Below, in pieces: positions 5,599-27,467 of a stretch of 38,804 nt of DNA (its first letter is position 1; every line of letters starts with the position of its first letter). Location of the stretch: positions 56,503 to 95,306 of the forward strand of contig JBNGIO010006094.1 of the NCBI GenBank assembly GCA_049999805.1, given 5' to 3'. Made by a program: the position numbers and the translations under genes. Source of the stretch: Folioceros fuciformis. Taxonomy: Eukaryota. The notes under the pieces were generated by a model. That model made no database searches. It saw only the letters and a program-made list of their open reading frames with translations, and was not told where the DNA came from.

Positions 5599-5946
5599 GG
5601 TAGGCGCTAATGGTCACTGTGCTCTTAATGCGAGCACGGAAACCAAAGTTCCGACTCACCATGATTAGCATGTCCCAGCGCAGTGGCCATGCCATCGCAT
5701 AGCGCTCATCCACTCTCCCGTTTGTCTCAACGGCATTTCAAGCACCCCCTAATGTAACGTATAATATACCTATACTATATGGCTATACGTATCGTATACC
5801 TATGTGTCTACATATTCCTGAACTCATCTTTAGTTTGAAGAAGTGCATACTCTGCAAGTGTGGTATCCCGGTGCAAACTTTGAAAGTGTCGTATCCCCGT
5901 GCACTCGCGAGGCCAAGCTCCAGAGCTGGTCGTGATCGAATTTGCA
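5599..5946 (+). repeat. Left TIR of the MULE
   Basis: GGTAGGCGCTAATGGTCACTGTGCTCTTAATGCGAGCACG...GAATTTGCA is the diverged reverse complement of 9258-9622. Confidence 0.93.
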
Positions 5947-5948
5947 GA

Positions 5949-6704
5949 ATGAAGCTCAACTTGAACACGGTGGTCGCTCAATTAGAGGAGGACGAGCCTA
6001 CCCAGCTCAACTTTGTGCCTCTGCGCATCACTGTACAAGATTACGATAGAGGCTCACATGTTTATAGAGGTTGCCTGAAATGTTTCACTGGTATCTCGCC
6101 GGAAGGGTGGTGTAAAAAATGTAAGGTTGTTGTGAATGGGCAAATGCAATACCGCCTGCGACTCCTCCTTGCTGATTCTAGTTGTAAGGCATGGGGGACG
6201 GCATTCACTGCTGGTAGAGATTTTATGAGGCTCACCCCTGAAGAGTTTAGCTTGAAGGAATTACGAGGAGAAGGTACAGAAGTCTTGGACCGGTTGCTGC
6301 ACAAGAGTTTCTTGTGCCTCTTCTCCATCAAAAAGGCATCAAGGCGACACCCTTATAGCATCATCATTCTAAGGGCCGATGCAGTCTACGTTCAGGAATT
6401 GTTTCCTGACCTTGGTGTGATGAACAACAGAGCTAATAATTTGCCACAGTTCTGCACAGATGCTCAGACGCCTCTTGTGCAAACAATTTCAGCTTTTCAT
6501 GTGGACACAACTGAGTGCAGAGCCTGTGAAGACCTTGTGAGCAAACATGTGAACGAGCCTTTGTCAATTGCTGTGCCTCTTGTCGTTTGTTGTTCTTTGT
6601 CTATAGTTGTAACTATTGTGTTGGTTTCACTTCCAGCAAAGAGTCTTGCTGCAATATATCTCGTAGTTTCTCTTGCAGCAATTATAGTGTTGAAGTTGTT
6701 GTAA
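5949..6704 (+). CDS. Stand-alone RPA1/RPA70 C-terminal (DBD-C)-like zinc-ribbon OB-fold protein, putative ssDNA-binding
   Basis: YRGCLKC-x9-CKKC followed by YRLRLLLADSSCKAWGTAF...MRLTPEEF matches the Rep_fac-A_C pattern. The ATG lies just inside the TIR edge, after a TTTGCAG acceptor-like site. The domain spans ~5949-6390; the 3' tail of the ORF is uncertain. Confidence 0.8.
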   Translation: MKLNLNTVVAQLEEDEPTQLNFVPLRITVQDYDRGSHVYRGCLKCFTGISPEGWCKKCKVVVNGQMQYRLRLLLADSSCKAWGTAFTAGRDFMRLTPEEFSLKELRGEGTEVLDRLLHKSFLCLFSIKKASRRHPYSIIILRADAVYVQELFPDLGVMNNRANNLPQFCTDAQTPLVQTISAFHVDTTECRACEDLVSKHVNEPLSIAVPLVVCCSLSIVVTIVLVSLPAKSLAAIYLVVSLAAIIVLKLL

Positions 6705-6820
6705 GTGGTCAAAGACACAAGCTGTCCAACGTAAATTACAAAGTGCTTACTACAGTTGGTTTTCAATTGATGTCTTACATGTCCATATACCACAAATAGG
6801 CTTGCATTGCCTACCACATA

Positions 6821-9230
6821 TTATGGAACAATGGTGTCCACTTGTCCAGCAAGCTCCACGAAAGTGGGCTGTTTCTTCTTAGATAGCAGCTTCCAAGTAT
6901 TACTTCTTTCCCAAAAAGCAAGCTTCCTTTTCAAGCTATTATCCAAATTACTATTATCAGCTAGCAATGGAAGTGTTGGAAGCATGATGTTACCTATTGC
7001 ACTAGCTCCCATGCCCTCTAATTGTCTGATCATTTGCTGGAATAAGCTCTTCGCGTGCTGCTGAAGCAAAGGCCACTTTTCCAAAACGAATGTCAATTGC
7101 TAGTAAAAAGCTTCCAAACTTGGAGATGTCACCAATGTACCTACTGTGCACATGGTTGCTTGCTTAAGAGCGGGAATACCAATCTCACCTTGGCTACTTG
7201 TCCCCAAGCTACTATCATGTGGTAGGAAATTCTCCCACATAGAAGTGTCCTCTTCAGGACTAGGTAGAAAGCTATGTTGGAACTCAGTTTGAGCAACTGC
7301 AACTTCAGAATACCTAACAACCAGCTTTTGAGTGGGGACTACCTTATCCATGAGCAACATAACCTTGAGCTAGTGTTTGCACATGAAACCTCGTGTCCCT
7401 TGCTTACATGTACAATAACCCCAAGCAGTTCCAACACCACTTACAATATTTCTACGTGTTGTCCCATTGTCCTGACTCTTGACATAAGCAATATTTGGAG
7501 AGTCTGGAGTTGGTAAGACCACATGGTTGTCTAATATGGCTGTTGCTTTTTGGAGAGCACTCCGCACAATGTTCTCGTGCTTGGAATTTCGAAGCATGCC
7601 AACTGCCTTATACTGGGCTACATACCAAAAGTGTCTGTTAACCTCTTCGAACAAAATATGCAGCAGCCAATCCCATTGCCAATTACGAAGGGTTTTCTTG
7701 GAGAGCAAATGGGTACTTCAGATGTTTGTGATATGCTTCTATGGATGAGTTGCAGTCTTGTCCGACATGTGGAATTGTCCTAATTGCTTTAATCCACTGT
7801 AGCATGTTAAAACCCCACTGGTCTTTAAAATACTTCACAAAGCTGCTAGCAGACTCTTGGAAGGTAGCATAAAACAATTCAAGTCTTTGCATGCATGCTT
7901 GGTTTATGTCTACCCCGACATCAATGTCCATATGCATGATGTCACCTAATGATTTCATAATTGCATACCTGGTGTCGGGTGCCTTCACTGTTTCAGCAAT
8001 TGCCACAGCCAAGCCCTCCGAACATGCCATAGACACAAGAAAATCAGCACGTTACTTCCAAACACAGACTTGATGCCATTTATTTCCGCCATACAATTGT
8101 CTACCAGAAAAGCGGTCGGTTGCCAATCTGCCCTATGTAGAAGCATCCTTGCTCGTAAGGATTCCAGCCACTTTGAAATATTGGCTGCCGTAGCCTTGTT
8201 GGTAATCACCCAAGCCACAGGGATACCGTTAAAATGATCGTAAAAAACCAATAGAGTGAATAGCTGGAACTTCCACTTATTGGTGCCAAATGTAGCATCC
8301 ACACATATCACTGACTTGTGACCCCAACGCAACATAGACTGTAACTGAAAATCTGTTTGGATGTCTAACATAAAATCCTTGGCATGTAGTTCTTCTCCTG
8401 GCAAAGGGAAAAATACCTCCTCTCTGTGGACATCTATCCATAGCTTGACACTCACCTCATCATTTCCATGGAATCGCCACACCCTGGAATCCAACCCTGC
8501 CTGCAAATTTCTTATGTCTCTAGGCAGAAAAAAAACATCCCGCTCAAGGATTGCTTGCACATCACGATACTTCCTTAAAAACACCTTACACTCATGGTCA
8601 ATCAGGATCTGAAAAGCAGTTGTCTTACGGAGCAAGTTATACTTCACCCACTCCTTCTTAGTTGTGGACAGGTAGTAAAAAGCAAGGGTACAATTTGAAG
8701 CTGAATCACTCGCTAACATACATGACAATACTCTCCCGTTGAATCAATGTGCTCCCTTCAATGTAGTCTCAGTTCAGCAACCTCAGAAAACATCTCCAGC
8801 TGTGTTACAAATAACAAAAACTGGCACCCACGTTTCTTGCTTTCTCCACAGGCAATCTTGGACCGCCTGCTCCCTTTGCCTAACTTTGGCTTGTTAGTGC
8901 TGTCCACAGAAACTGCAAAATCTGGAGGAGTTTGCTTTCGGTAGCCATAAGCACAAGCAAACTTGATGTAGTACCAAGGAGTGGTAGATGAAATTCCTCT
9001 TCGCCTCACACCAGATCTGGTCCAAACATTGGCCCTTATCAATTTGGTGGGGAAGAATGTCGACTTCTCTTCGCCAGCTATGAAATCTGGGTACCTCATC
9101 CATGCTCACCATCCTGCCAATTCAATGTCTCCTTACAAAAAGGATCAAGACCTGAATTTTGCACTTGAAAAGGGCAAGGTTGAGGTAGGATGGGGGCACC
9201 CACATGCCTTCTTGGCATTGATTCATCCAT
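6821..9230 (-). pseudogene. MULE transposase with SWIM zinc finger, broken by frameshifts and stops
   Basis: CVDATFGTNK (D1), GIPVAW, FLVDNCMAE (D2), CLWHVRRAW (CxxH), NSSIEAYH (E), SWIM CTC..CKH; N-terminal PDFIAGEE and KRGCQF; split over at least six ORF pieces. Start position approximate. Confidence 0.9.
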
Positions 9231-9257
9231 AAACTCTACATGATTGTCTTCTCTGGT

Positions 9258-9622
9258 TGCAAATTTGGTCACAACAAGCTCTGGACTTGGCCTCCCGAGT
9301 ACGCGGGGATACGGCCCGCGAGTACGCGGGGATACGGCACTTTCAGAGTTTGCACCGGGATACCATACTTTCAGAGTATGCACTTCTTCAAACTAAAGAC
9401 GGATTCAAGAATACGTAGACAGATAGGTATACGGTACGTATAGCTATACAATATAGGTATATAATACGTTACATTAGGGGGTGCACGAAATGCCATCGAG
9501 ACGAACGGGAGAGTGGATGAGCGCGATGGCATGGCGGCTGCGCTGTGACATGCTAACCATGGTGAGTCGGCACTTTGGTTTTCGTGCTCGCATTAAGAGC
9601 ACAGGGACCATTAGCGCCTGCC
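9258..9622 (-). repeat. Right TIR of the MULE
   Basis: Reverse complement of the left TIR; contains a 23-nt-period duplication CGAGTACGCGGGGATACGGC (9296-9315, 9319-9338) absent from the left TIR. Confidence 0.93.
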
Positions 9623-13919: not shown

Positions 13920-15890
13920 AACTTGACTTTCTCTTTGAACACATGATTAGAAGCTCCGCTGTCTAGAAACCACTTCTGACAGGCTTTCGTAGAAGAAGTG
14001 AGACATGCCACCAGTAGACCAGGGGTAGAAGGGGTAGAAGCCCTAACTGTATGAGTTTCTGTTTGCCTGCCTCTTGCACTCTCATCTTTGACTTTCTTCC
14101 TATAGTCCTCTATCCAATGACCTGACTTCCCACAGTAGTTGTAGTTTCCAGGCTTAGAAGTAGAGTTGGAGGATAACTAACCAGAGGGTGACGAGGATGA
14201 CATAGCTTGTCCTCTACCCTTGCCATAACCACCTCTACCTTTCCCCCTACCTCTACCACGTCTTCTCCCCCTCCCTAAAAACAAGGTTGTATCACTCTGT
14301 TTATGTGGAGCAAGAGACGAGGAAGAACTACCCTTCATTTGTTTTCTATTGGCTTCAAATTGCAGTAAGGCTCCTACAACCTTTTGTACAATAAGGTTAG
14401 AAGTTGCTAGGGTAGATGTTGTGGCAGGTGTGACTGTTGCTGATGTTTGCAGACTTGAACTAAAGTATTCATAGCTGGAAGAAAGAGAAAGTAACAGTTG
14501 TACTGCTGCTCTTGATTTTGAGATGATCACTCCACAGGAAGTAAGTCTGGCTCTCAAAGCCCTGAACTTGGAAACGTGACTCTCAACAAAGTCACTCTCT
14601 CTCATGCGAAGTGTCTGATACTGCAGTGTGGCTGCCTCTACTACCATATCCTTAGTGTCATAAGTCTCTGATAGCAATGACCAGATCTCGTTTGAAGTCT
14701 GCGTCATTCTTATATGAGGTATCAAATCTTGAGACACGGAAGCCACAAGTATATTTCTTGCCTTCCTATCCTTAGAATTCCATTCTAACTCATCCTTTTG
14801 TGTCCACTTGTGCACCGTGCCGCTAGGTGTAGGGGGACCAGAGGGCTGGCCAACAACTTTCTTTGGTACGGACCCATCAACAACGTCCATCAGAAGCTTC
14901 TCATCAAGGACGCAACGCACCCTAAAATTCCAGGCATCGAAATTATGTGAGGTTAGACGATCCTTCTCCTGCAGTCTTTCAGATCCAGAGTTAGGATTAG
15001 ATGACCCCATGATGCCTATAAATCACAACTTTTGACTCAAAGAGGAACAACTGATAGGCGAGCAAACTGCTCCCTGAGACCGTCTATGTCCTATTCTTGC
15101 TTAGCTATCGTCATGAGATCAATCGACCTTTGGCTCTCAAGTCGATCATGTCTTGATTGCAGATTGTCAGCATGAGTAGTGTACTCCAACAACATGCTTC
15201 TCACATTCAAAATGAAATTCAAAATAGCATCACGCTCTAAAAATTTCTCCACGTATGGCTTAGCATTACTAGAATGTAGAAGACTTGAGGACGATAAACA
15301 AGAGTGCTAATCTCTGTTGGCAGATTTTCTCCTTTGAAATTGCTCAAATTGTGAGTCTGAATCGAGGTCTTCTTGTGCAATTACTTGTGAGTTAACAAGA
15401 ACTCTGAGGAATTGAGCCCGCTTTGCTTGCTCTACTGGGGACACTCCTTTCTTGAAAACTTTCCTTTCGAATTCAGTCTGCGCTGAATGTCTGGATTTTC
15501 CCCTCTCAAAATTTGGCGAGGATTGCCTGAGGGAATTCCTTCAAGGCATCCTCGCTTCCCCTAGAGACTAGGATTTCAACAACGCAGAGGATGTGTGCAC
15601 TCCCATTATAGAAACACAAAATGGCTAGAGTCGAACAAGAACAAACAAAAGTACAATCCACAACGTGGCTCTGATACCATAATACATTTGTGGAGATTTG
15701 ACCAAGAGATCGCACGCACGGCTAGACTCACAAAAGAACTGATCACATTACGATGGCGGCACAGAAGGATATCTGATCCAAGTCCCATGAACGGTTACAA
15801 CCGTTATTTAATTGTCGTTTAGGGTTTCTCATAAATAACTAACTCTTGGTATATAACAATGAACAACTAACTTATCCTTATTTCTCAACA
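13920..15890 (-). mobile_element. Truncated copia D (5' LTR, PBS, gag, start of protease)
   Basis: PBS TGGTATCAGAGCC (15679-15667); candidate LTR 15689-15890; protease WFLDSGASNH at ~13945-13975; no integrase, RT or 3' LTR. Confidence 0.87.
14080..15010 (-). pseudogene. gag: gag of copia D
   Basis: LQEKDRLTSHNFDAW, MRESDFVESHVSKFR, RG-rich tract; stop at 14177; knuckle decayed to YNYCGKSGHWIEDY. Confidence 0.88.
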
Positions 15891-18346: not shown

Positions 18347-19017
18347 ATGCCTCAGGTGAAGACAAGCGACTCTGAACCTGATCCTACAGAACCACCGTTG
18401 GTAAAGCGGCAATGCTAGGCAGCGGAGAGGTTGTAGGGGGTTGCCAGAAGGTCGCAATGGGAGAGCACACTTGCTGGACGAGGAAGAGGGACAAGGAGCC
18501 AGCCTAGAACTGAAGGTCAGATTTCATTTGAGTTAGAACTGCAACTTTCGGGTTTGGAGGAGGTATCTGGGCTTAGGTACCCCGATCCAAGCCCGCTGGT
18601 TGATCTCCATTCAAGATGGCCTCGCTCAACTTCAGCCCAGACACATTTTGTGGGTGTTCAAGTCAGTTCAGGCGCGGTAGTTGCATTTGCTACTACGGTT
18701 GCTGAAAGCACTACCGCGGTAGCTATGACTACTACTCCAGTAGCTGTAACCACTGAGCAGCCTTACCCACACTGTATGGGGAAAGGAAGGGTTACGAGGA
18801 TCCTGATGACTTTGTCGAGCATTTTGAGCAGCTGACCATTGCCAACCAGGAGGCAGGGGATGCGCAACGTGCTCGGCTATTCTATGGAGTCTTGCGTGGA
18901 GCTGCAGCCAAGGGGTACAAGCGGGAGTACCTCAAGTCGGCCACACTTCCAACCACCTTCGAAGCATTGAAGAGAACTTTCTATGAGAGGTTTCGAGGAG
19001 TGGATGTTGAGAGATAC
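18347..19017 (+). pseudogene. gag: Ty3 gag, N-terminal part
   Basis: DPDDFVEHFEQL...LRGAAAKGY...TFEALKRTFYERF retrotransposon-gag pattern; stops and a frameshift; start approximate. Confidence 0.8.
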
Positions 19018-19288
19018 TGAAGAAATAAATGTTAATTATGGATAAGTGTTGACTCATGCTTGGATTTAGGGTTACCTTAGTTTAAATATATCTATGTAAA
19101 AATTAGGTCTAGTCACCTAATACCCTTTCTGAAAGGTTGTGACTCTTAGGAGTTCACGTGATGCTTAGTATCTCATCACTTGATTTAATTATAAGTCAGT
19201 TTTCATATACACAATAACAATAACAATAAATATATATACAATGTAATTGTTCAATTTAATTCATTTGTCAATTTCACATAATTCTTCA
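19018..19288 (+). repeat. 5' LTR of copia E
   Basis: TGAAGAA...TTCTTCA, a direct repeat of 25991-26261. Confidence 0.98.
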
Positions 19289-19301
19289 TGGTATCAGAGC
19301 C
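19289..19301 (+). promoter_or_regulatory. Primer binding site, tRNA-iMet
   Basis: TGGTATCAGAGCC abutting the LTR. Confidence 0.97.
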
Positions 19302-19654
19302 ATGATAAATGTAGATGCATCTAGAATGCACACACAAAATTTTGCATAAGAAAATATGCAGAAAAAAGTGTTTTATTGTTGTTTTGAATAGTAAAATGTT
19401 CTTGAAAAGGAATTTTTAAATAAATATCAATAAATGAATTTTGTGTTGTTTTTCTTTGAAAATCTATACAAATTCTTGCTAAATTAGGTAGCCATTCTAA
19501 CGTACATTCATTGAATTGCTCCTTTGAGCAATTGCGATGAACATACACTAGAATAGCTGCCCAATGGGCAAGGTTATATATAGAAAAATACAAAAGAAAT
19601 ATAAGATGTAGAGATTCTCCACTTATAAAGCACAAATCATTCTTGTCTTTGCAA

Positions 19655-20365
19655 ATGGCCAATTACGATGGTCATCAGCACAGGCGCCTATGCCCTGCCG
19701 AGAGGATTCCAAATCTTGATAGGCTAAGAGTCAATAATACACTAACAATTGCATCCCAACTATATCAAGGCGTCCTAGAATGGAGCCAAAGAAATCAGAC
19801 TCAGCCTATGCTAATTGCAGATCTTAGAGATGCTTTCAATACACTCATTGAAGCACTCTACCCACAAGAGTCAAATTTAATGTTCACTCTTCCTCCTAGA
19901 AATCCACTGAATTTGCCTGAATTGCGCATACGAAGGGTTTTTTATGGAAACGGGCAGCCCCGTGGCTTCATCACTACTCATGTAGCCCCACACACAAGTG
20001 TTAACACAATAATCGATCGCATAGAGGCAAACAATAGAATAGTGGACACACGTTGCACACAGATTAATGGACACTTGTCTACAGTAAGCGTTGACTTACA
20101 GGATCTGAAAGAGCAAATTGCACACATGGATTCCAAGCTATTGATGCTGTTGAAGCCTGAGTTACTCAAAAATCCAGTATTCAGAGGCACAACCTGTAAG
20201 CATGCCAGTAAGACAAATCGTGCGCGAAGTTGTAGCTCACCTAACTCGTGTCCATCCTGCTCCACATATTGTTTTAATAAGTACAAAATAAGGAGCTTCA
20301 AGATTGCAGCTACGAGGATGATCTGGGATCAAAATCTGCAGCGCCAGAACCAACAAGCATTATGA
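19655..20365 (+). CDS. Extra 5' ORF (ORF0) of copia E, 236 aa, unknown function
   Basis: Uninterrupted ORF, CAAATGG start context, heptad segment LSTVSVDLQDLKEQIAHMDSKLLMLL, Cys cluster CSSPNSCPSCSTYC; its stop overlaps the gag ATG (ATGA). Confidence 0.7.
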   Translation: MANYDGHQHRRLCPAERIPNLDRLRVNNTLTIASQLYQGVLEWSQRNQTQPMLIADLRDAFNTLIEALYPQESNLMFTLPPRNPLNLPELRIRRVFYGNGQPRGFITTHVAPHTSVNTIIDRIEANNRIVDTRCTQINGHLSTVSVDLQDLKEQIAHMDSKLLMLLKPELLKNPVFRGTTCKHASKTNRARSCSSPNSCPSCSTYCFNKYKIRSFKIAATRMIWDQNLQRQNQQAL

Positions 20366-23300
20366 GCAGAGCGTCTGATCAGGGAGCTTTTGGAGATATT
20401 TTTAACGAAGCTGAATTTGAACCTGAGGCTAAACAACAACCTAGAAGAATGGGAGACGCAGCCTCAACCTACAATTATGGGGGTAATGAATCCTTCAAGG
20501 AGAAGGATAGGTTCAATGGCAACGACTTTGACATTTGGCTGATCCGGATGGAGGGCATTCTCGAAATGAGGGGCCTGCTGAAACATGCAACCGGAGCAGT
20601 AGTGAAACCAGACGCAGGATCTTCGGGAGAAGAAGAATGGTTAGCTAAGGACAGCGGAGCCAAGTACCTTATTCGCAGTGGCCTGACAACTGAAATGTTG
20701 AGGTAGACAGCAGGGGTACAAACTTCAGCCGAAATCATGGACCGTCTAAAGGAACTCTACGCAGGCCAAAACATGGTCAGTGCAATGACAGCTTTGAGAA
20801 ATTTCCAGAACTTGAGAATGAAGGACTGGGACTCAGTGGAGAAGCACGTGAGTACCTTTAGGACCCTAGCCTCTCGGCTTCAGGGTGCTTCACAAATTGC
20901 CATCAGGGATGAAGAGATGGTGATGAGGCTCCTTCTATTGCTTCCTGAAACTTGGTCACACTTTGTGACTTCTCATACAGCTGCTCAGACACAAGCTACA
21001 TTGTTAGCAAAGAAGCAAGGTGTGGAAATGCCAGAGATGAGGTTTTCACAGTTGGTTAGTTCTATGCTGCAAGAAGAAGCAAGCAGAAATAATCACAAGA
21101 AAGCAGGGAAACAACAGGCCCTGTACACCTCAAACAAAGGACGAGGAGGCAAGAAATTATTTTCCAAAGGAGATGGTGGAAATCCTTCCAAGGGAGGTAG
21201 CTCAGGCGGATCCTCATCAGGGAAGAAGACAAAGAAACAAGGAACCTGCAATTGGTGCAAGTTACCTGGACATTGGGAAAAGGAGTGTCGCAAAAAACAG
21301 GCTGGAGTTCCTCGCAAGGAGGGGACCAGCGCTGAGACAAATGTTGTGGTTAAAAAGTCTAATACCCCATCAGCCCTTACAGTTGGGATTAGGGAATTTG
21401 CAAGTCCATTACTGCTTCCCACCTGCCTTTCTTCCAAAGCTAATCTGAAACCAATAGACGAATGGTATTTGGATACGGGTGCAACAGCACACATCTGCTT
21501 TGATAGAAATGCATTCAAAACATATAAGTCTGTTTCAGATAAGTATGTTTACCTTGGGGACGACAGGTCTCTAGTCGCACCTGGGCGAGGCACAGTTGAG
21601 TTACTAGTTCCTACAGGGATTACACTCATGTTGTTAGAAGTCTACTATGTGCCTGAAATGACTCGAAACCTGATTTCAGTTAGAAGATTGAATGCCGACA
21701 ATAATAGTCATGTCGTATTCACAAGGACAGATTGCTGTATCATAGATGCCATTGACCCTAGAAAGGTCCTTGCACATGGGTCCTCTAATCACCATCTGTT
21801 CCGTCTTCATTTGCACAGTGGATCAGTAGAGTCCCACATGACACAAGATGTCTCACTTGCGTCTGCACAACAAACAACAAAGTCAAAATTGTGGCATTCA
21901 CGTTTGGGTCACCCCCACATGGCAAAGTTACAAAAATTGGCTGTGAGTGACTTGTATCAAGATGGACCCATTGGCCCTTTGACTGGCATACCTTTTTGTG
22001 AGGCTTGTGTGCTGTCAAAGAAACACCAAGCTGATTTCAAGAACAAGGCGCCTTATCGTGCACATGATCTCCTTGAGCTAGTACATACTGACCTGTGTGG
22101 ACCCTTATCTCAAGAGTCCATAGGAGGTGGACGTTATTTCCTAACTTTTACAGATGACAAGAGCAGATTTGTCACTACCTATATCCTGAAAAACAAAAGC
22201 GACTGTTTCTCCTACTTCAAGGAATACATAAAGTTCGCTGAGCGTTGGACAGGACAACAGCTCAAGACTCTAAGATATGATAATGGCGGGGAATTTACCT
22301 CTAATGAATTTCAGCAATTCTGTAAAGATGAAGGTATAGGACGTCAACTTACAGTCGTATACACTCCCCAGCAGAATGGAGTGGCAGAGCGATTGAATCT
22401 TACATTGCAGGAGATGGTTTCCCCCTTGTTACATGACGCTCACTTGCCCCTACCTTACTGGGCTGAGGCTTTGATGACTTCAACCTTCCTACTAAATAGG
22501 TTGCCCACCACTGCTGTTGAAGATAAGACACCCTATGAGGCCTTTACCGGCAAGAAGCCCTCAATTCAACACTTGAGGATTTTCGGCTGTTTAGCATATG
22601 CCTTCATTCCTAAGCAGAAACGCGATAAGCTGTCATCCAAGGCACGCAAGCTACTAATGTTGGGTTATACGGAGGGGATTAAAGCTTATAAGCTCTATGA
22701 TGCCCCCACGAATAGAGTCATCTATGCTCGGAGTGTTACCTTCGACGAAACAAGGACTTGGGCTTCAGTGGGAGCACATCCTTCTATTCCTGAACTTGAA
22801 GAAAATGAGGACATTTATGAATTCTCTCATTATGACCTGACAGATCATGGCACACAGGCTCCACCTGTTGAAAACATTCCACCTGTTGAGGAAGATGCTC
22901 ATGCAGGAGGGGAAAATCAGGCAGTGTTAGATGACGAGCAATCTGCACATGACATTCCACCTGTAATGCCCCTGCCCGATATACAGGATCACATTTCTCA
23001 ACCAGATCACACATTCATTGATGAAACAGCTGACGGTGATGCTGAAGATGAAGCTGACCAGAATGAGGCATCTGAGGACTTGCATGATACTCTTCCTGCT
23101 GAACCTGCACACGAGTTTGAGCGAGAGCCTATTAGACGTTATCCTACATGTGAACGTCGACTTCTTGACTACTATCATGCACCAGATTTCAAGATTACCT
23201 CTTCTTATGTAAAGGCTTATGCTGCGACAATGTCAAATCCTATAGAGCCACAGTCTTATGAGGAAGCCCTCAACAGACCTGATCACAAGGAATGGAGAAA

Positions 23301-24843
23301 GGCAATCCAGTCATAATATGATTCCCTTATCGAGAACGGAACTTGGGAATCAGCAAAGTTGCCCAAGGGCAGAAAACTGGTGTCATGTAAATGGGTTTTT
23401 AAACTGAAGGTTAAGGCAGATGGATCATTTGACAGATACAAAGCTAGATTGGTCGCTAGAGGTTTCACAAAAATTCCAGGTTTAGATTACCTCGAAACTT
23501 TCGCTCCCGTAGTCAAGCATGCAACTTTTCGTACCATGTGTGCAATAGCTGCTGACCTGGACTATGAACTTAGGATGTTTGATGTGAAGACTGCTTTCTT
23601 GCATGGAATCCTTGATACAGAGATCTACATGCAGCAACCAAAGGGTTTTGAAGTCAAAGGAAAGGAGGATTATGCATGCAAGCTAATTAAGTGTCTATAT
23701 GGACTTAAACAATCAGCTATGAAATGGAATGCTAGACTAGATGAGGAACTTCTCATACTAGGTTTTGCTAAGAGTAAAGCAGATAACAGTTTGTACATAT
23801 ACATCAAAGGAGATGTTATATGTTACTTAGCTGTTTATGTGGACGACCTTATACTCGCAAGCAACAACCTGGACTTTATATCTTCAGTTACCAACCTGCT
23901 GGCAAAGAAATTTAAAATGACAGACCTTGGTCCTCTACAAAGCTGTTTAGGAATACATATACAGCGAAATAGAGAGAAGAGAATTCTCACCATGACACAA
24001 CCTCGATACATATTGGAAAGTGCAGAGCAGTTGGGTCTGAAAGATGCCAAGGCTGCTGCTACACCACTTCCAAGTGGCCTTAAGCTAAGCAAGGACATGT
24101 CACCTGTCACACAGTCAGAGAAAAATGACATGAGGAATGTACCTTACAGGCAGGCTGTAGGGAAGCTAATTTATGCAGCAAACTTCACATGGCCTGATGT
24201 AGCATATTCAACAAGTGCTTTATCACAGTATCTGGAAAACCCCGGGCAAACTCACTGGACGTGTGTGAAAAGAGCATTTCGATATCTCAAAGGCACTTAC
24301 AACAGTGGGATTGTGTATGCTTATAAGGATGAAGTTTCATCATATCTTCATGTCTATACGGACTCCGATTATGCAGGCGACATTGATAGCAGAAGGTCAG
24401 TATCGGGATGTGTGATCACTTATGCAGGTGGACCAATTTGCTGGTCCAGCAAGAAACAACCAACAGTAGCACTTTCAAGTACTGAAGCAGAGTATAGGGT
24501 ACTTACAGCTGCTGCCAAAGAAGTTATTTGGTTGAAGTTGTTGTTTTCTGAGCTTGGAATTTGCTTGCCAACCTGCATCGTTATGAAAACTGATAATCAA
24601 GGAAGCATGTCCTTAGCAGAGCATCCTGTGTTTTACTCAAGAACCAAGCATGTGGCTGTTGAGTATCACTGGATAAGAGAACTTCTTGCAGCAGGCACAA
24701 TCAGCTTAGAATATGTGCCCACTCAGGAAAACCCTGCGGACATGTTCACAAAAGCACTAGGCAGAGAACTGCACGAAAGACATGTGAAGTTTTTAGGTCT
24801 GGGTGACTCTTCAGAGTCCCTAGGCACTATCAAGTCTCTCTAA
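20362..24843 (+). pseudogene. gag-pol: copia E gag-pol, single frame with two premature stops
   Basis: CNWCKLPGHWEKEC, WYLDTGATAH, LWHSRLGH, HTDLCGP, DNGGEF, QQNGVAER, YVDDL, NPADMFTK; TAG at 20704 and TAA at 23314. Confidence 0.95.
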
Positions 24844-25820
24844 ACTCACCTTAAAACCTAGTAGTCCCCCCCATCCACCACTGAATCCTGAGTGACCGTC
24901 ATCATGATCAGAAGGACTATAAGGCTCATTTGTCCTCATGGACAGAGAGCTAGAAGAAGTACTATCAGCAGGATTTTCAGAATCAGGTTCATAAGGTGAA
25001 GAGAAACTTTCTCCAGATCTGGGCGAATTACGTTTCCTTCTCTCCTGATATGAGATCCTCTCTTCAGACTCGAGGTCTTCTTCTTCCTTCAGACGTGATG
25101 TAGATCTTGCCAAACAGTGGGAGTTAGGGACTTTATAATTCAAAGGCTACTAGGAATAATAGAAAGGGGGTTAGAGACTTACTGTAGAAACTGACGACGT
25201 GGCCAGGGAACTCCTGGCACATCACCACACGCACACGCACCATCTTGACTCTAGGAGAGTCACACATATACCACAGAGGAGAGCACGGCTGCCTGGATGA
25301 GCCCAAAGTCACTATCTTGGTCTCAGAATCAGCATCCCTAGGAGCAGGAAATTTCCAAGGAGTTGGTGGCCTAGAATCAGAATCGGAATAAGCACCCATG
25401 TGTTTCTGTTTTCCACCAGCAGTGGGAGCTTGGACAGGAGCACGCCGAGCAGCCCTTGTAACAGTAGCAGGCACACCCGATTCGGCAGCAACCCTGTTAG
25501 CTAGGAACTCATGAGTTGTCCCACGGGGCCTCCCACAAGGACGCCTTACATCAGGAGCTCCTGCAGCTGAAGTAATCACGACGGGTGTGACCTGAGCAGC
25601 TGTTCTAGTCTTGGTGAACCGGCCTAAGCTGTCCCTGGCCTGGCATTTTTTTTCTTTTCTTTTGAGCAGGAAGCTCAGGCTCAGCAGAAGATGGAGACAT
25701 GCTGAGCTCACTTGGAACAAGTTTCTTCAGCAGAAGTACGAGAATCAAGCACAGGGCGTAAGCAAGGCTTAAGAAAGAAGCGCACCTCTCTGCGATTCGC
25801 TTCACACTGGGAGTTTCCAT
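24820..25820 (-). CDS. Putative antisense 3' ORF of copia E, probably spliced or frameshifted
   Basis: AAAACCATGG start at 25820; a candidate 61-nt GT-AG intron (25785-25725) joins it to ORF 25133-25720; basic KRK tract, RDSLGRF, AT-hook-like RPCGRPRG; Ser/acidic ORF 24820-25143 follows. Confidence 0.5.
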
Positions 25821-25990
25821 GGTTTTATTCGCCTGAAAGCTGTAGAGTAAGCTCAGTGCTTGTGGTACACTCCGTGTAGCAACCGACCATGCAACCGAGA
25901 TGAAGCTGGACAGACAGACATTCATAAAAGGAAACACAAGGAACCGACGCGAAGGAGAAGACTGTACAAGTCATGATCAACAAGTGGGAG

Positions 25991-26261
25991 TGAAGAAATA
26001 AATGTTAATTATGGATAAGTGTTGACTCATGCTTGGATTTAGGGTTACCTTAGTTTAAATATATCTATGTAAAAATTAGGTCTAGTCACCTAATACCCTT
26101 TCTGAAAGGTTGTGACTCTTAGGAGTTCACGTGATGCTTAGTATCTCATCACTTGATTTAATTATAAGTCAGTTTTCATATACACAATAACAACAACAAT
26201 AAATATATATACAATGTAATTGTTCAATTTAATTCATTTGTCAATTTCACATAATTCTTCA
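25991..26261 (+). repeat. 3' LTR of copia E
   Basis: Follows PPT AAGTGGGAG and precedes TSD GATAC. Confidence 0.98.
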
Positions 26262-27467
26262 GATACGTCCTATCCAAGGTCGAGAGGTTACGAAGAAAGC
26301 AAAGGGAGAGGTTGCAGGTTTATGTGGAAAGATTCCATAGCCTGCGGGACCATGCTGGCCCCCATTCAAAGCTCATGGCAATACGTTGGTTTGCTAGGGA
26401 CCTAGGCACAACAATGGGGAAGCATGTACGACTCCAAGCTGAGAAGGATTTGGACCAAGCAATCAGAGTTGCTCTGAACTACAAAGAGTCCAATACAGAG
26501 CAGTGGAAGAAATCAAGGAAGGATGAAAGGAAGGGCCGGGGGGACAAGAAGAAATCCAAGAAGAAAAAGAAGAAGTACTCCTCGTCCTCCGATGACCATT
26601 CAACGGAGGCAAGAAGCTCTTCCAAGGACTCCTCGGATAGCTCCACGGAGGAAGAAATCAACAACAGCTATGAGGAAGATTCGTCGGGTGATGAGCGCAG
26701 CCGGAGAAAGGAAAAGAAGAAATCAAGAATCGAAGTGGAATGGAAGCGCCATACCCAAGGGAAGGAGCGGGTGAAGGCAAAACAGGAGGTCGCAAGCGCA
26801 AGGAAGGATGCTGAACAAGCGAGGAAGGAAGCGGAGAAGGCGGCCAAGAAAGTGGAACAACAAGGGAACAAGATGGAAGAAAAGGTTGGAAGAGATGATG
26901 GCCGAATTGGAGAAGCTCCACATTAATGCGGTGGAGGACCACGAGAGGCGAAGAGTTACTGTGGGTGTCCGAGCAAATCTTTTTTGTTCAACTTGTGAGC
27001 AGGATGGGCACTCAAGAGCTAGCTGCCCGCAGATGACGGTGCAGCTGCTGGACTATGAGGAAGGGGAGGAAGGAATGCACCTGGTTGACACATACCAAAT
27101 TCAGGAGGCAACCCCAATTTATGGGTACCCGAAGACTCCATACCCTGCGAATCTTTGAAATCCTATTGGCATGGGAATGCGAAATCAGGTGGTGAGGACG
27201 GCTAGACAGGTGAATGCTATCCAGTGCTACAATTGCCGAGGATTTGGGCATCTTGCAAGCCATTGTCCTTCAGCAACTCGTCAAGGGAACAGTGATTTTG
27301 AGAGGCTGTGTATGGACTGCAAGCAGCTAGGGCATGTGGCAGGCAGTGTTCTTTGCCAGCCACTAAAGAAGCACGTGAGAATTGCTCAACCTCCAGTCAT
27401 AGTAACCCAACCATCCATGGGGCAAAATTCAGTACCAGCGAAGCATGTCCAAGATGCACTCATGGCA
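26262..27467 (+). pseudogene. gag: Ty3 gag, C-terminal part with three zinc knuckles
   Basis: YVERFHSL, LDQAIRVALNY, K/S/E-rich linker, CSTCEQDGHSRASC, CYNCRGFGHLASHC, CMDCKQLGHVAGSVLC; frameshift and stop. Confidence 0.85.

What the first reader, a model, noticed from the sequence alone, without database searches (positions are those of the whole stretch)
19655..20365. Copia with an intact extra 5' ORF coupled to gag by an ATGA stop/start overlap
Seen: a 236-aa ORF between PBS and gag with a coiled-coil-like heptad segment and a C-terminal Cys cluster. Its TGA overlaps the first gag ATG (20362-20365). Established: ORFs upstream of gag are known mainly in Ty3 Ogre/Tat elements, and AUGA overlaps mediate termination-reinitiation in some viruses. 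Inference: an accessory protein (oligomerising, possibly Zn-binding or anti-silencing) with coupled gag-pol translation in a copia.
Basis: partly seen in the sequence, partly recalled or inferred. Interest (0 to 1): 0.72.

Follow-up and report, generated by a model that had tools for sequence, protein, structure and literature searches.

The report
Copia lineage with two extra genes
A group of plant jumping genes of the copia type, usually limited to gag and pol, carries two further conserved genes of unknown kind, one before gag and one spliced on the opposite strand, while the stop/start overlap first flagged belongs to this one family only.

Summary
ORF0 (19655-20365, 236 aa) is real. It has 131 matches in the genome, lies about 360 nt after the PBS and before a copia gag wherever context could be read, and has dN/dS 0.16-0.36, like gag. 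No homologue or fold match was found outside this genome. The ATGA overlap is not conserved: 1 of 46 readable junctions has it in frame with gag, 5 close sisters start gag at +10, and 36 only 52-209 nt downstream. ORF0 is not AUG-depleted and the host 18S copy lacks the TURBS target. Strict AUGA coupling is thus unsupported for the lineage and merely possible for the window's sub-clade. A second copia lineage, also in this window, has a different 5' coiled-coil ORF and an acceptor-like site just before gag. Best reading: a three-gene copia lineage; ORF0 is a soluble basic coiled-coil protein, probably an RNA/particle scaffold (inferred). The window's copy is decayed.

The parts
19013..19017 (+). 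left target-site duplication (GATAC); right copy 26262-26266; the element sits in the gag region of another LTR element
   Evidence: empty-site joints 19012>26262 in X1 and X2
19018..19288 (+). 5' LTR, 271 nt, TG...CA
   Evidence: 1 mismatch to the 3' LTR
19289..19300 (+). primer binding site (initiator tRNA-Met type; assignment recalled)
19301..19654 (+). structured leader of about 360 nt with 10 upstream ATGs; length conserved (336-369 nt) across families
   Evidence: folding z -7.8 here and -3.4 to -14.1 in 10 other leaders
19655..20365 (+). ORF0, 236 aa, basic (pI 9.7), no membrane segment, conserved terminal Leu
20000..20152 (+). ORF0 heptad / coiled-coil helix, residues 116-166
20195..20272 (+). 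ORF0 basic Cys region, residues 181-206; only C181 and CPSC (199-202) conserved
20362..20365 (+). ATGA stop/start overlap, in frame with gag only in this family
20362..20448 (+). acidic N-terminal gag extension, shared in frame with the sub-clade
20449..24843 (+). gag-PR-IN-RT-RH from the lineage-wide gag Met; in-frame stops at 20704-20706 and 23314-23316
25183..25925 (-). antisense gene, coding exon 1: hydrophobic N-terminal segment, basic cluster, RDxLGRF, GRPRG, all-beta domain of about 75 aa; frame broken in the poly(A) tract near 25650 in this copy
25107..25182 (-). phase-1 intron of the antisense gene (76 nt); donor canonical, acceptor non-canonical in this copy
24820..25106 (-). antisense gene, exon 2 (charged, Ser-rich, KKR/SPR cluster)
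25982..25990 (+). short polypurine tract
   Evidence: sequence
25991..26261 (+). 3' LTR
15037..15549 (-). outside the focal element: broken remnant of a different 5' ORF of a second copia lineage (PBS 15679, gag Met 15010)

Best explanation
The element belongs to a copia lineage of this land plant with a three-gene plan: LTR-PBS-structured leader-ORF0-spacer-gag/pol-antisense spliced gene-PPT-LTR. SHOWN: the plan, its conservation across families, purifying selection on both extra genes, the intron signature. INFERRED: ORF0 is the first ORF of the full-length RNA and makes a soluble, basic protein that oligomerises by its coiled coil and binds nucleic acid with its basic CxxC tail, most likely scaffolding the genomic RNA or the particle (about 0.45 among functions). 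Gag-pol is started at the lineage-wide Met by a route that needs no stop/start overlap: a separate spliced or sub-genomic RNA, or structure-guided entry at hairpins just 5' of the AUG. The window's ATGA arose in one family when a short deletion removed the ancestral +10 start and a synonymous last codon supplied an in-frame ATG. It may be used for reinitiation there but is not the lineage's mechanism.
For: 131 ORF0 matches, 28-62% identity apart from self; the same slot between PBS and gag in the loci with readable context. dN/dS medians for pairs with dS above 0.1: ORF0 0.16-0.36, gag 0.15-0.36, pol 0.10-0.21. The ORF0 tree recovers most gag-pol families (patristic r 0.56). Reverse test: none of 34 lineage members fetched by protease and lacking an ORF0 match has a PBS directly before gag; 4 of the 7 examined at the gag start keep the ORF0 tail. 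Junctions: 1 ATGA, 5 at +10, 36 at 52-209 nt, 4 with no in-frame Met, of 46 readable among 57. ORF0 holds 6-15 internal ATGs against 9-13 expected. pI 8.8-10.7 and maximum KD19 at most 1.63 in 23 open frames. Spacer hairpins recur within families, one with an invariant TAGCTA loop palindrome in 8 of 8. Antisense gene: donor TACA|GT(A/G)AG and an in-frame YAG 85-142 nt later in 10 of the 12 elements with that donor; median pS 0.74 against pN 0.40.
Against: No RNA data: no RNA holder was listed, so no transcript, splice or start site is shown. No fixed acceptor before the gag Met in this lineage (32 distinct 40-mers) and no conserved donor seen in the parts of the leader alignment that were displayed. 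Spacer folding is weak in z terms (most between 0 and -2). The function of ORF0 rests on composition and analogy only; the model is of low confidence (pLDDT 63.5, pTM 0.28). The ORF0 and gag-pol trees differ in deeper branching (Spearman 0.38). The sub-clade keeps stop and start within 20 nt, which argues for coupling there.
Confidence: 0.6

Rival explanations
1. Termination-reinitiation in the window's sub-clade: ribosomes finishing ORF0 restart at the -4 (window) or +10 (sisters) AUG, giving a gag with an acidic extension at a fixed ratio below ORF0.
For: Stop and start lie within 20 nt, the range given for TURBS viruses (PMC10275272, passages). The extension stays in frame across sisters, with indels in multiples of 3 downstream of the junction; +10 Met in L012, L018, L023, L058, L075, L004 and L110. 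The window lost the +10 start yet has an in-frame one at -4.
Against: The host 18S copy examined has no UCCCA, the target of the UGGGA motif (motif recalled). The junction folds no better than shuffles (z 0.3). L110 has an ATGA out of frame with gag, so ATGA arises easily. The downstream Met is kept in all sisters. The window's copy is decayed, so its ATGA was not seen in an uninterrupted element.
Confidence: 0.25
2. ORF0 is a regulatory protein (anti-silencing factor, or a TAV-like transactivator of reinitiation across the 50-200 nt spacers), not a structural one.
For: It evolves about 2.4 times faster than gag-pol in tree length. Coiled-coil oligomers are predicted for VANC and the Athila domain (PMC13547354, passages). 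Viral-protein-activated reinitiation after long ORFs exists in plant pararetroviruses (PMC5902531, passages). Leader and ORF0 are full of AUGs, so plain scanning cannot reach gag.
Against: No similarity to any such protein. The antisense product, with basic clusters and a GRPRG motif, looks the better candidate for a nuclear role. Several spacers contain AUGs before the gag Met.
Confidence: 0.25
3. ORF0 is a captured or decaying passenger with no function.
For: Many matches carry stops or frameshifts; close pairs have dN/dS 0.61.
Against: Close pairs give 0.79 and 0.68 for gag and pol too (decay after insertion); between families dN/dS is about 0.2; 23 distinct open frames of at least 205 aa among loci L001-L070; start, length and terminal Leu are conserved.
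Confidence: 0.03

Closest known systems
Ty3/gypsy Ogre and Tekay/Retrosat2 elements with a 5' extra ORF
   Same: An extra sense ORF of unknown function before gag, evolving faster than pol (Retrosat2 ORF0 Ka 0.26 against 0.08, PMC3485330 passages); Ogre has both 5' sense (21%) and 3' antisense (60%) extra ORFs (REXdb table).
   Different: Copia domain order, 271-nt LTRs, 7.2 kb; no Pfam family at E up to 1 for the window ORF0 and none shared by the 17 aligned copies.
Retand/Grande/RIRE2 antisense 3' ORFs
   Same: A conserved antisense ORF between pol and the 3' LTR; the Grande protein is nuclear (PMC7264820 part 1 of 3; PMC11963269 passages).
   Different: Here in a copia, with a conserved intron, a hydrophobic N-terminal segment and a beta domain with no Pfam or fold match.
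Ty1/copia lineages of REXdb (SIRE, Bianca, Ikeros)
   Same: Superfamily, tRNA-Met PBS, 5-bp TSD; a few per cent of Bianca and Ikeros elements have extra ORFs (blank cells were dropped, so their columns are uncertain).
   Different: No listed copia lineage has a 5' sense or 3' antisense ORF as a general trait; the SIRE ORF is 3' sense. REXdb counted only ORFs of at least 250 codons and would miss most ORF0s (most 226-253 aa).
Caulimovirid small coiled-coil proteins encoded before the capsid gene (badnavirus/tungrovirus P1-P2, caulimovirus virion-associated protein)
   Same: A long structured leader with uAUGs and small ORFs before the capsid/RT polyprotein, sometimes with fused stop/start codons (PMC5902531 passages). 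The coiled-coil, virion-associated role is recalled, not from a call.
   Different: Those ORFs are AUG-free for leaky scanning; ORF0 is not. No conserved short uORF before the leader stem (2-35 codons). No homology shown.
Stop/start coupling in caliciviruses, influenza B and the non-LTR element SART1
   Same: AUGA/UAAUG-type overlap, stop and start within 20 nt.
   Different: The overlap is not conserved across the lineage; no rRNA complement or stable structure found at the junction.

Membership tests
Ty1/copia | order gag-PR-IN-RT-RH | tested here: met
Ty1/copia | TG...CA LTRs, 5-bp TSD, PBS, PPT | tested here: met
a named REXdb copia lineage | RT/RH/INT phylogeny against reference sets | not testable with these tools
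   REXdb sequence file too large to read; best RT hits are two unnamed Logan proteins at 74-77%, all others listed at most 52%
Ogre/Tat (Ty3/gypsy) | gypsy domain order | tested here: not met
   IN precedes RT; works like them in layout only
Ogre/Retand/Athila extra-ORF families (PMD, Transposase_28, Athila ORF-1) | Pfam domain match | tested here: inconclusive
   no such family listed; those domains cover only part of the known eORFs
TURBS-type termination-reinitiation | stop and start within about 20 nt | tested here: met
   met for the window (-4) and its sisters (+10); not for 36 of 46 junctions
TURBS-type termination-reinitiation | upstream motif complementary to the 18S rRNA loop | tested here: not met
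   TGGGA at 20324 exists, but the host 18S copy L116 has no TCCCA; motif identity recalled
TURBS-type termination-reinitiation | structured element at the junction | tested here: inconclusive
   z 0.3 for 20272-20395, one sequence only
badnavirus-type leaky scanning | upstream ORF free of AUG | tested here: not met
   13 internal ATGs here, 6-15 in 23 copies
env-like ORF | 3' position and membrane segment | tested here: not met
   5' position; maximum KD19 0.64; Atlas env-like hits score only 0.80-0.81
zinc-binding domain | four conserved C/H ligands with metal bound | tested here: inconclusive
   C181, C199, C202, H157 conserved at 13-16 of 17; region has pLDDT under 50
homo-oligomeric coiled coil | self-association | not testable with these tools

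The most novel reading that the evidence does not exclude
A copia lineage with a complex-retrovirus-like expression plan: a novel coiled-coil protein from the genomic RNA that itself enables gag-pol translation, true stop/start reinitiation in one sub-clade (I found no report of this for an LTR retrotransposon in searches), and a spliced, possibly membrane-anchored antisense DNA-binding protein with an unmatched beta fold. A second copia lineage in the same genome would have reached the same layout independently, with spliced gag expression.
Probability: 0.15. Interest if true: 0.85.

Novelty: new variant of a known kind. Interest (0 to 1): 0.62.

Why it matters
Copia elements are regarded as structurally uniform, with SIRE's 3' ORF the only lineage-wide extra gene in the REXdb table. 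Here one small plant genome holds two copia lineages with conserved 5' genes, and one of them also a spliced antisense gene, giving three protein families with no match in the libraries searched. It makes a long-open question testable: how an element with an ORF before gag expresses gag-pol. The lineage offers natural variants of the junction (-4, +10, 50-200 nt with hairpins) and a second lineage with an acceptor-like site. It also suggests that a 250-codon cut-off hides such genes in existing surveys.

Tried and rejected
Homologue searches for ORF0: none at E up to 0.001 among 163 candidates; profile search of 1.84 billion representatives gave 3 repeat or coiled-coil proteins, judged chance; Atlas best 0.81; Foldseek PDB and viral none at E up to 0.001; VIA-align best Z 6.7, generic long helices. 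Antisense domain: no Pfam, no homologue among 5336 longer candidates, no Atlas hit, best Z 3.0, no viral fold; these blanks show neither absence nor a new fold. ORF0 versus the second lineage's ORF: hhalign probability 9%, 21 columns, homology not shown. Spliced ORF0-gag fusion through a GT over the ORF0 stop: the only shared in-frame AG lies inside the conserved KDRF codons behind a purine-rich tract; rejected. The CTAAC motif before gag as a branch point: no fixed YAG follows and it sits in hairpins; left open. Pararetroviral shunt layout: uORF length not conserved (the script's ORF0-start column defaulted for many rows and was not used). Expression: no RNA holder listed; run X4 laid only 2 short unrelated pieces. 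Earlier findings of the scan: three look-ups returned nothing.

Full report
Observation. The window holds a complete 7.2-kb copia element: LTRs 19018-19288 and 25991-26261 with one mismatch, TSD GATAC, PBS at 19289, and gag, protease, integrase, RT in copia order. ORF0 runs 19655-20365 (236 aa), and its TGA overlaps an ATG at 20362 in the gag frame. No ORF of that length arose in 2000 shuffles. The copy is decayed: gag-pol has stops at 20704 and 23314. Contigs of runs X1 and X2 (one sample) differ from the window by under 1%, bridge the ATGA unchanged and share both stops. So the overlap is not an assembly error, but it was not seen in an uninterrupted element. The host is a land plant with at least 150 DYW-domain matches (150 scored of 488 candidates) in an 87-Mb assembly; that this points to a seed-free plant is my recalled inference.

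ORF0 is a lineage gene. It has 131 matches in the genome, and a divergent copy as query returned 120 at largely the same places. In the loci fetched (the best 30 matches, then 40 longer stretches chosen from the list, partly the same places) it lies 336-369 nt after the PBS and before a gag whose pol is about 65-85% identical to the window's. Pairwise NG86 estimates on 69 entries, some of them the same place fetched twice and with identical pairs dropped, give median dN/dS 0.36, 0.25, 0.21, 0.16 and 0.20 in rising dS bins above 0.1, close to gag (0.36-0.15); close pairs give 0.61-0.79 for all genes, as expected from decay after insertion. The ORF0 tree recovers most gag-pol families but differs at depth (53 elements; Pearson 0.56, Spearman 0.38). 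For the reverse test I searched with the protease (150 scored of 1996 candidates), picked by eye the 34 lineage-level hits without a nearby ORF0 match and with possible upstream room, and fetched them. None has a PBS directly before gag; most are cut by a contig end or foreign sequence; one keeps an ORF0 piece by profile; 4 of 7 examined at the gag start keep the ORF0 tail.

The protein. It has a disordered N-terminus, a helical pair at 32-75, a long heptad helix at 116-172 and a basic tail with CPSC; pI 8.8-10.7 and no membrane segment in 23 open frames. The model is weak (pLDDT 63.5, pTM 0.28). Of the window's five tail cysteines three are conserved, with H157. Nearly all full-length ends close on Leu. 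No sequence, feature or fold search found a relative. Oligomer state could not be modelled.

The junction. Of 57 distinct junction sequences, 46 had a readable gag: 1 has an in-frame ATGA (the window), 5 have the first in-frame Met at +10, 36 at 52-209 nt (a few inflated by premature stops) and 4 none. The Met equivalent to 20449 is shared by almost all. The window's sub-clade (support 1.0) has an acidic gag extension in frame; sisters end ORF0 on CTG or TTG and start at +10, while the window shows a 17-nt gap over that start and ends on TTA. L004 has the +10 Met with a stop later in the extension; L110 has the +10 Met and also an ATGA out of frame (the script mis-assigned its stop). TURBS viruses keep stop and start within 20 nt and need an rRNA-complementary structured element (PMC10275272, passages). 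The distance fits the sub-clade, but the host 18S copy lacks the target of the recalled UGGGA motif and the junction is unstructured. Leaky scanning needs AUG-free upstream ORFs (PMC5902531, passages); ORF0 has 6-15. The leader is strongly folded in 11 of 11 tested, with 6-13 uATGs. The long spacers fold into family-specific hairpins, one with an invariant palindromic loop in 8 of 8, which suggests a dimerisation or packaging signal (inference). How gag-pol is started is not shown; my odds for the lineage are a separate spliced or sub-genomic RNA 0.45, structure-guided entry or scanning reinitiation 0.4, strict overlap coupling 0.15.

A second extra gene. Between pol and the 3' LTR, on the minus strand, lies a conserved frame with a hydrophobic N-terminal stretch (KD19 1.6-2.6 in 7 of 8), a basic cluster, RDxLGRF, GRPRG (AT-hook-like, recalled) and a domain of about 75 aa. 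That domain has 102 matches, saturated pS 0.74 against pN 0.40 in 10 copies, and an all-beta model (best pLDDT 81, other four 40-70) without a fold match. Of 19 elements tried, 15 could be anchored; 12 show a GT(A/G)AG donor at one position, and 10 of these an in-frame YAG at an aligned position 85-142 nt later behind a pyrimidine-rich stretch. The window and L064 lack the canonical acceptor; one X1 contig differs from the window at that site and has it. The window copy also has a frame break near 25650. One sub-lineage (L031, L033, L050) carries a different antisense ORF. No RNA confirms the intron.

A second lineage. The other copia in the window (PBS 15679, minus strand; gag 28% identical) has a broken 5' ORF with 38 matches. 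Open relatives are about 150-187 aa, start MPR 69-154 nt after the PBS and end in a coiled coil, mostly 23-30 nt before gag. A YAG lies exactly 5 nt before the gag ATG in 16 of 22 gag starts found in loci L118-L145, which looks like a splice acceptor. Homology to ORF0 is not shown.

Comparison. REXdb (PMC6317226; passages and additional file 5; files 1 and 3 not readable) lists extra ORFs in copia only for SIRE (3' sense, 74%) and a few per cent of Bianca and Ikeros, with a 250-codon cut-off; Ogre has 5' sense and 3' antisense ORFs. The review PMC7264820 (first third read) names antisense ORFs for Grande, RIRE2, Retand, PvRetro13 and Boty. Retrosat2 ORF0 (PMC3485330), Retand (PMC11963269) and the Arabidopsis atlas (PMC13547354) were seen as passages. 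Six literature searches (listings only) showed no copia with this plan; subscription journals are mostly not covered. The element is a member of Ty1/copia, works like Ogre in layout, and is not assigned to a named lineage.

Verdict. New variant of a known kind; interest 0.62.

Noticed in passing
window 15037-15679 (-); L118-L145: Second copia lineage with its own conserved 5' coiled-coil ORF (about 170 aa) and a YAG 5 nt before the gag ATG in 16 of 22 starts; the ORF's stop codon often reads like a branch point.
   Followed up: partly
L031, L033, L050, 3' region: This sub-lineage carries a different antisense ORF (about 200 aa, coiled-coil-like) in place of the spliced gene.
   Followed up: no
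L090 and L092 (PBS to gag 1.1-1.4 kb), L035, L046: Further distant copias with long PBS-gag stretches holding open or broken frames; 5' ORFs may be common in this genome.
   Followed up: no
L007, L014, L019, L020, L046, L054 and relatives, about 30 nt before the gag ATG: Hairpin with an invariant TAGCTA palindrome in the loop, like a kissing-loop dimer signal.
   Followed up: partly
last codon of ORF0: Terminal Leu is kept across families with different tails; it ends in G in most families (41% expected), making a GT over the stop, but no fusion splice fits.
   Followed up: partly
window 5599-9622: Element with about 300-nt inverted repeats holding a MULE-like transposase frame (minus) and a 300-aa plus-strand ORF at 5802-6704 that looks like an OB-fold/RPA-type accessory gene (labels recalled).
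   Followed up: no
run X3 on window 18900-26400: Differences are almost all C>T and G>A (377 and 167 places), as in a base-conversion methylation library; it could give the element's methylation state.
   Followed up: no
L114 (G000:C1849:3755-4025): A lone LTR 98% identical to the window's, with no internal sequence of the family beside it.
   Followed up: partly
L067 (G000:C4366): Two elements in tandem, 6925 nt apart and identical over the 3075 nt compared; a tandem insertion or an assembly duplication.
   Followed up: no
L051, L079: A neighbouring family also has an acidic N-terminal gag extension.
   Followed up: partly
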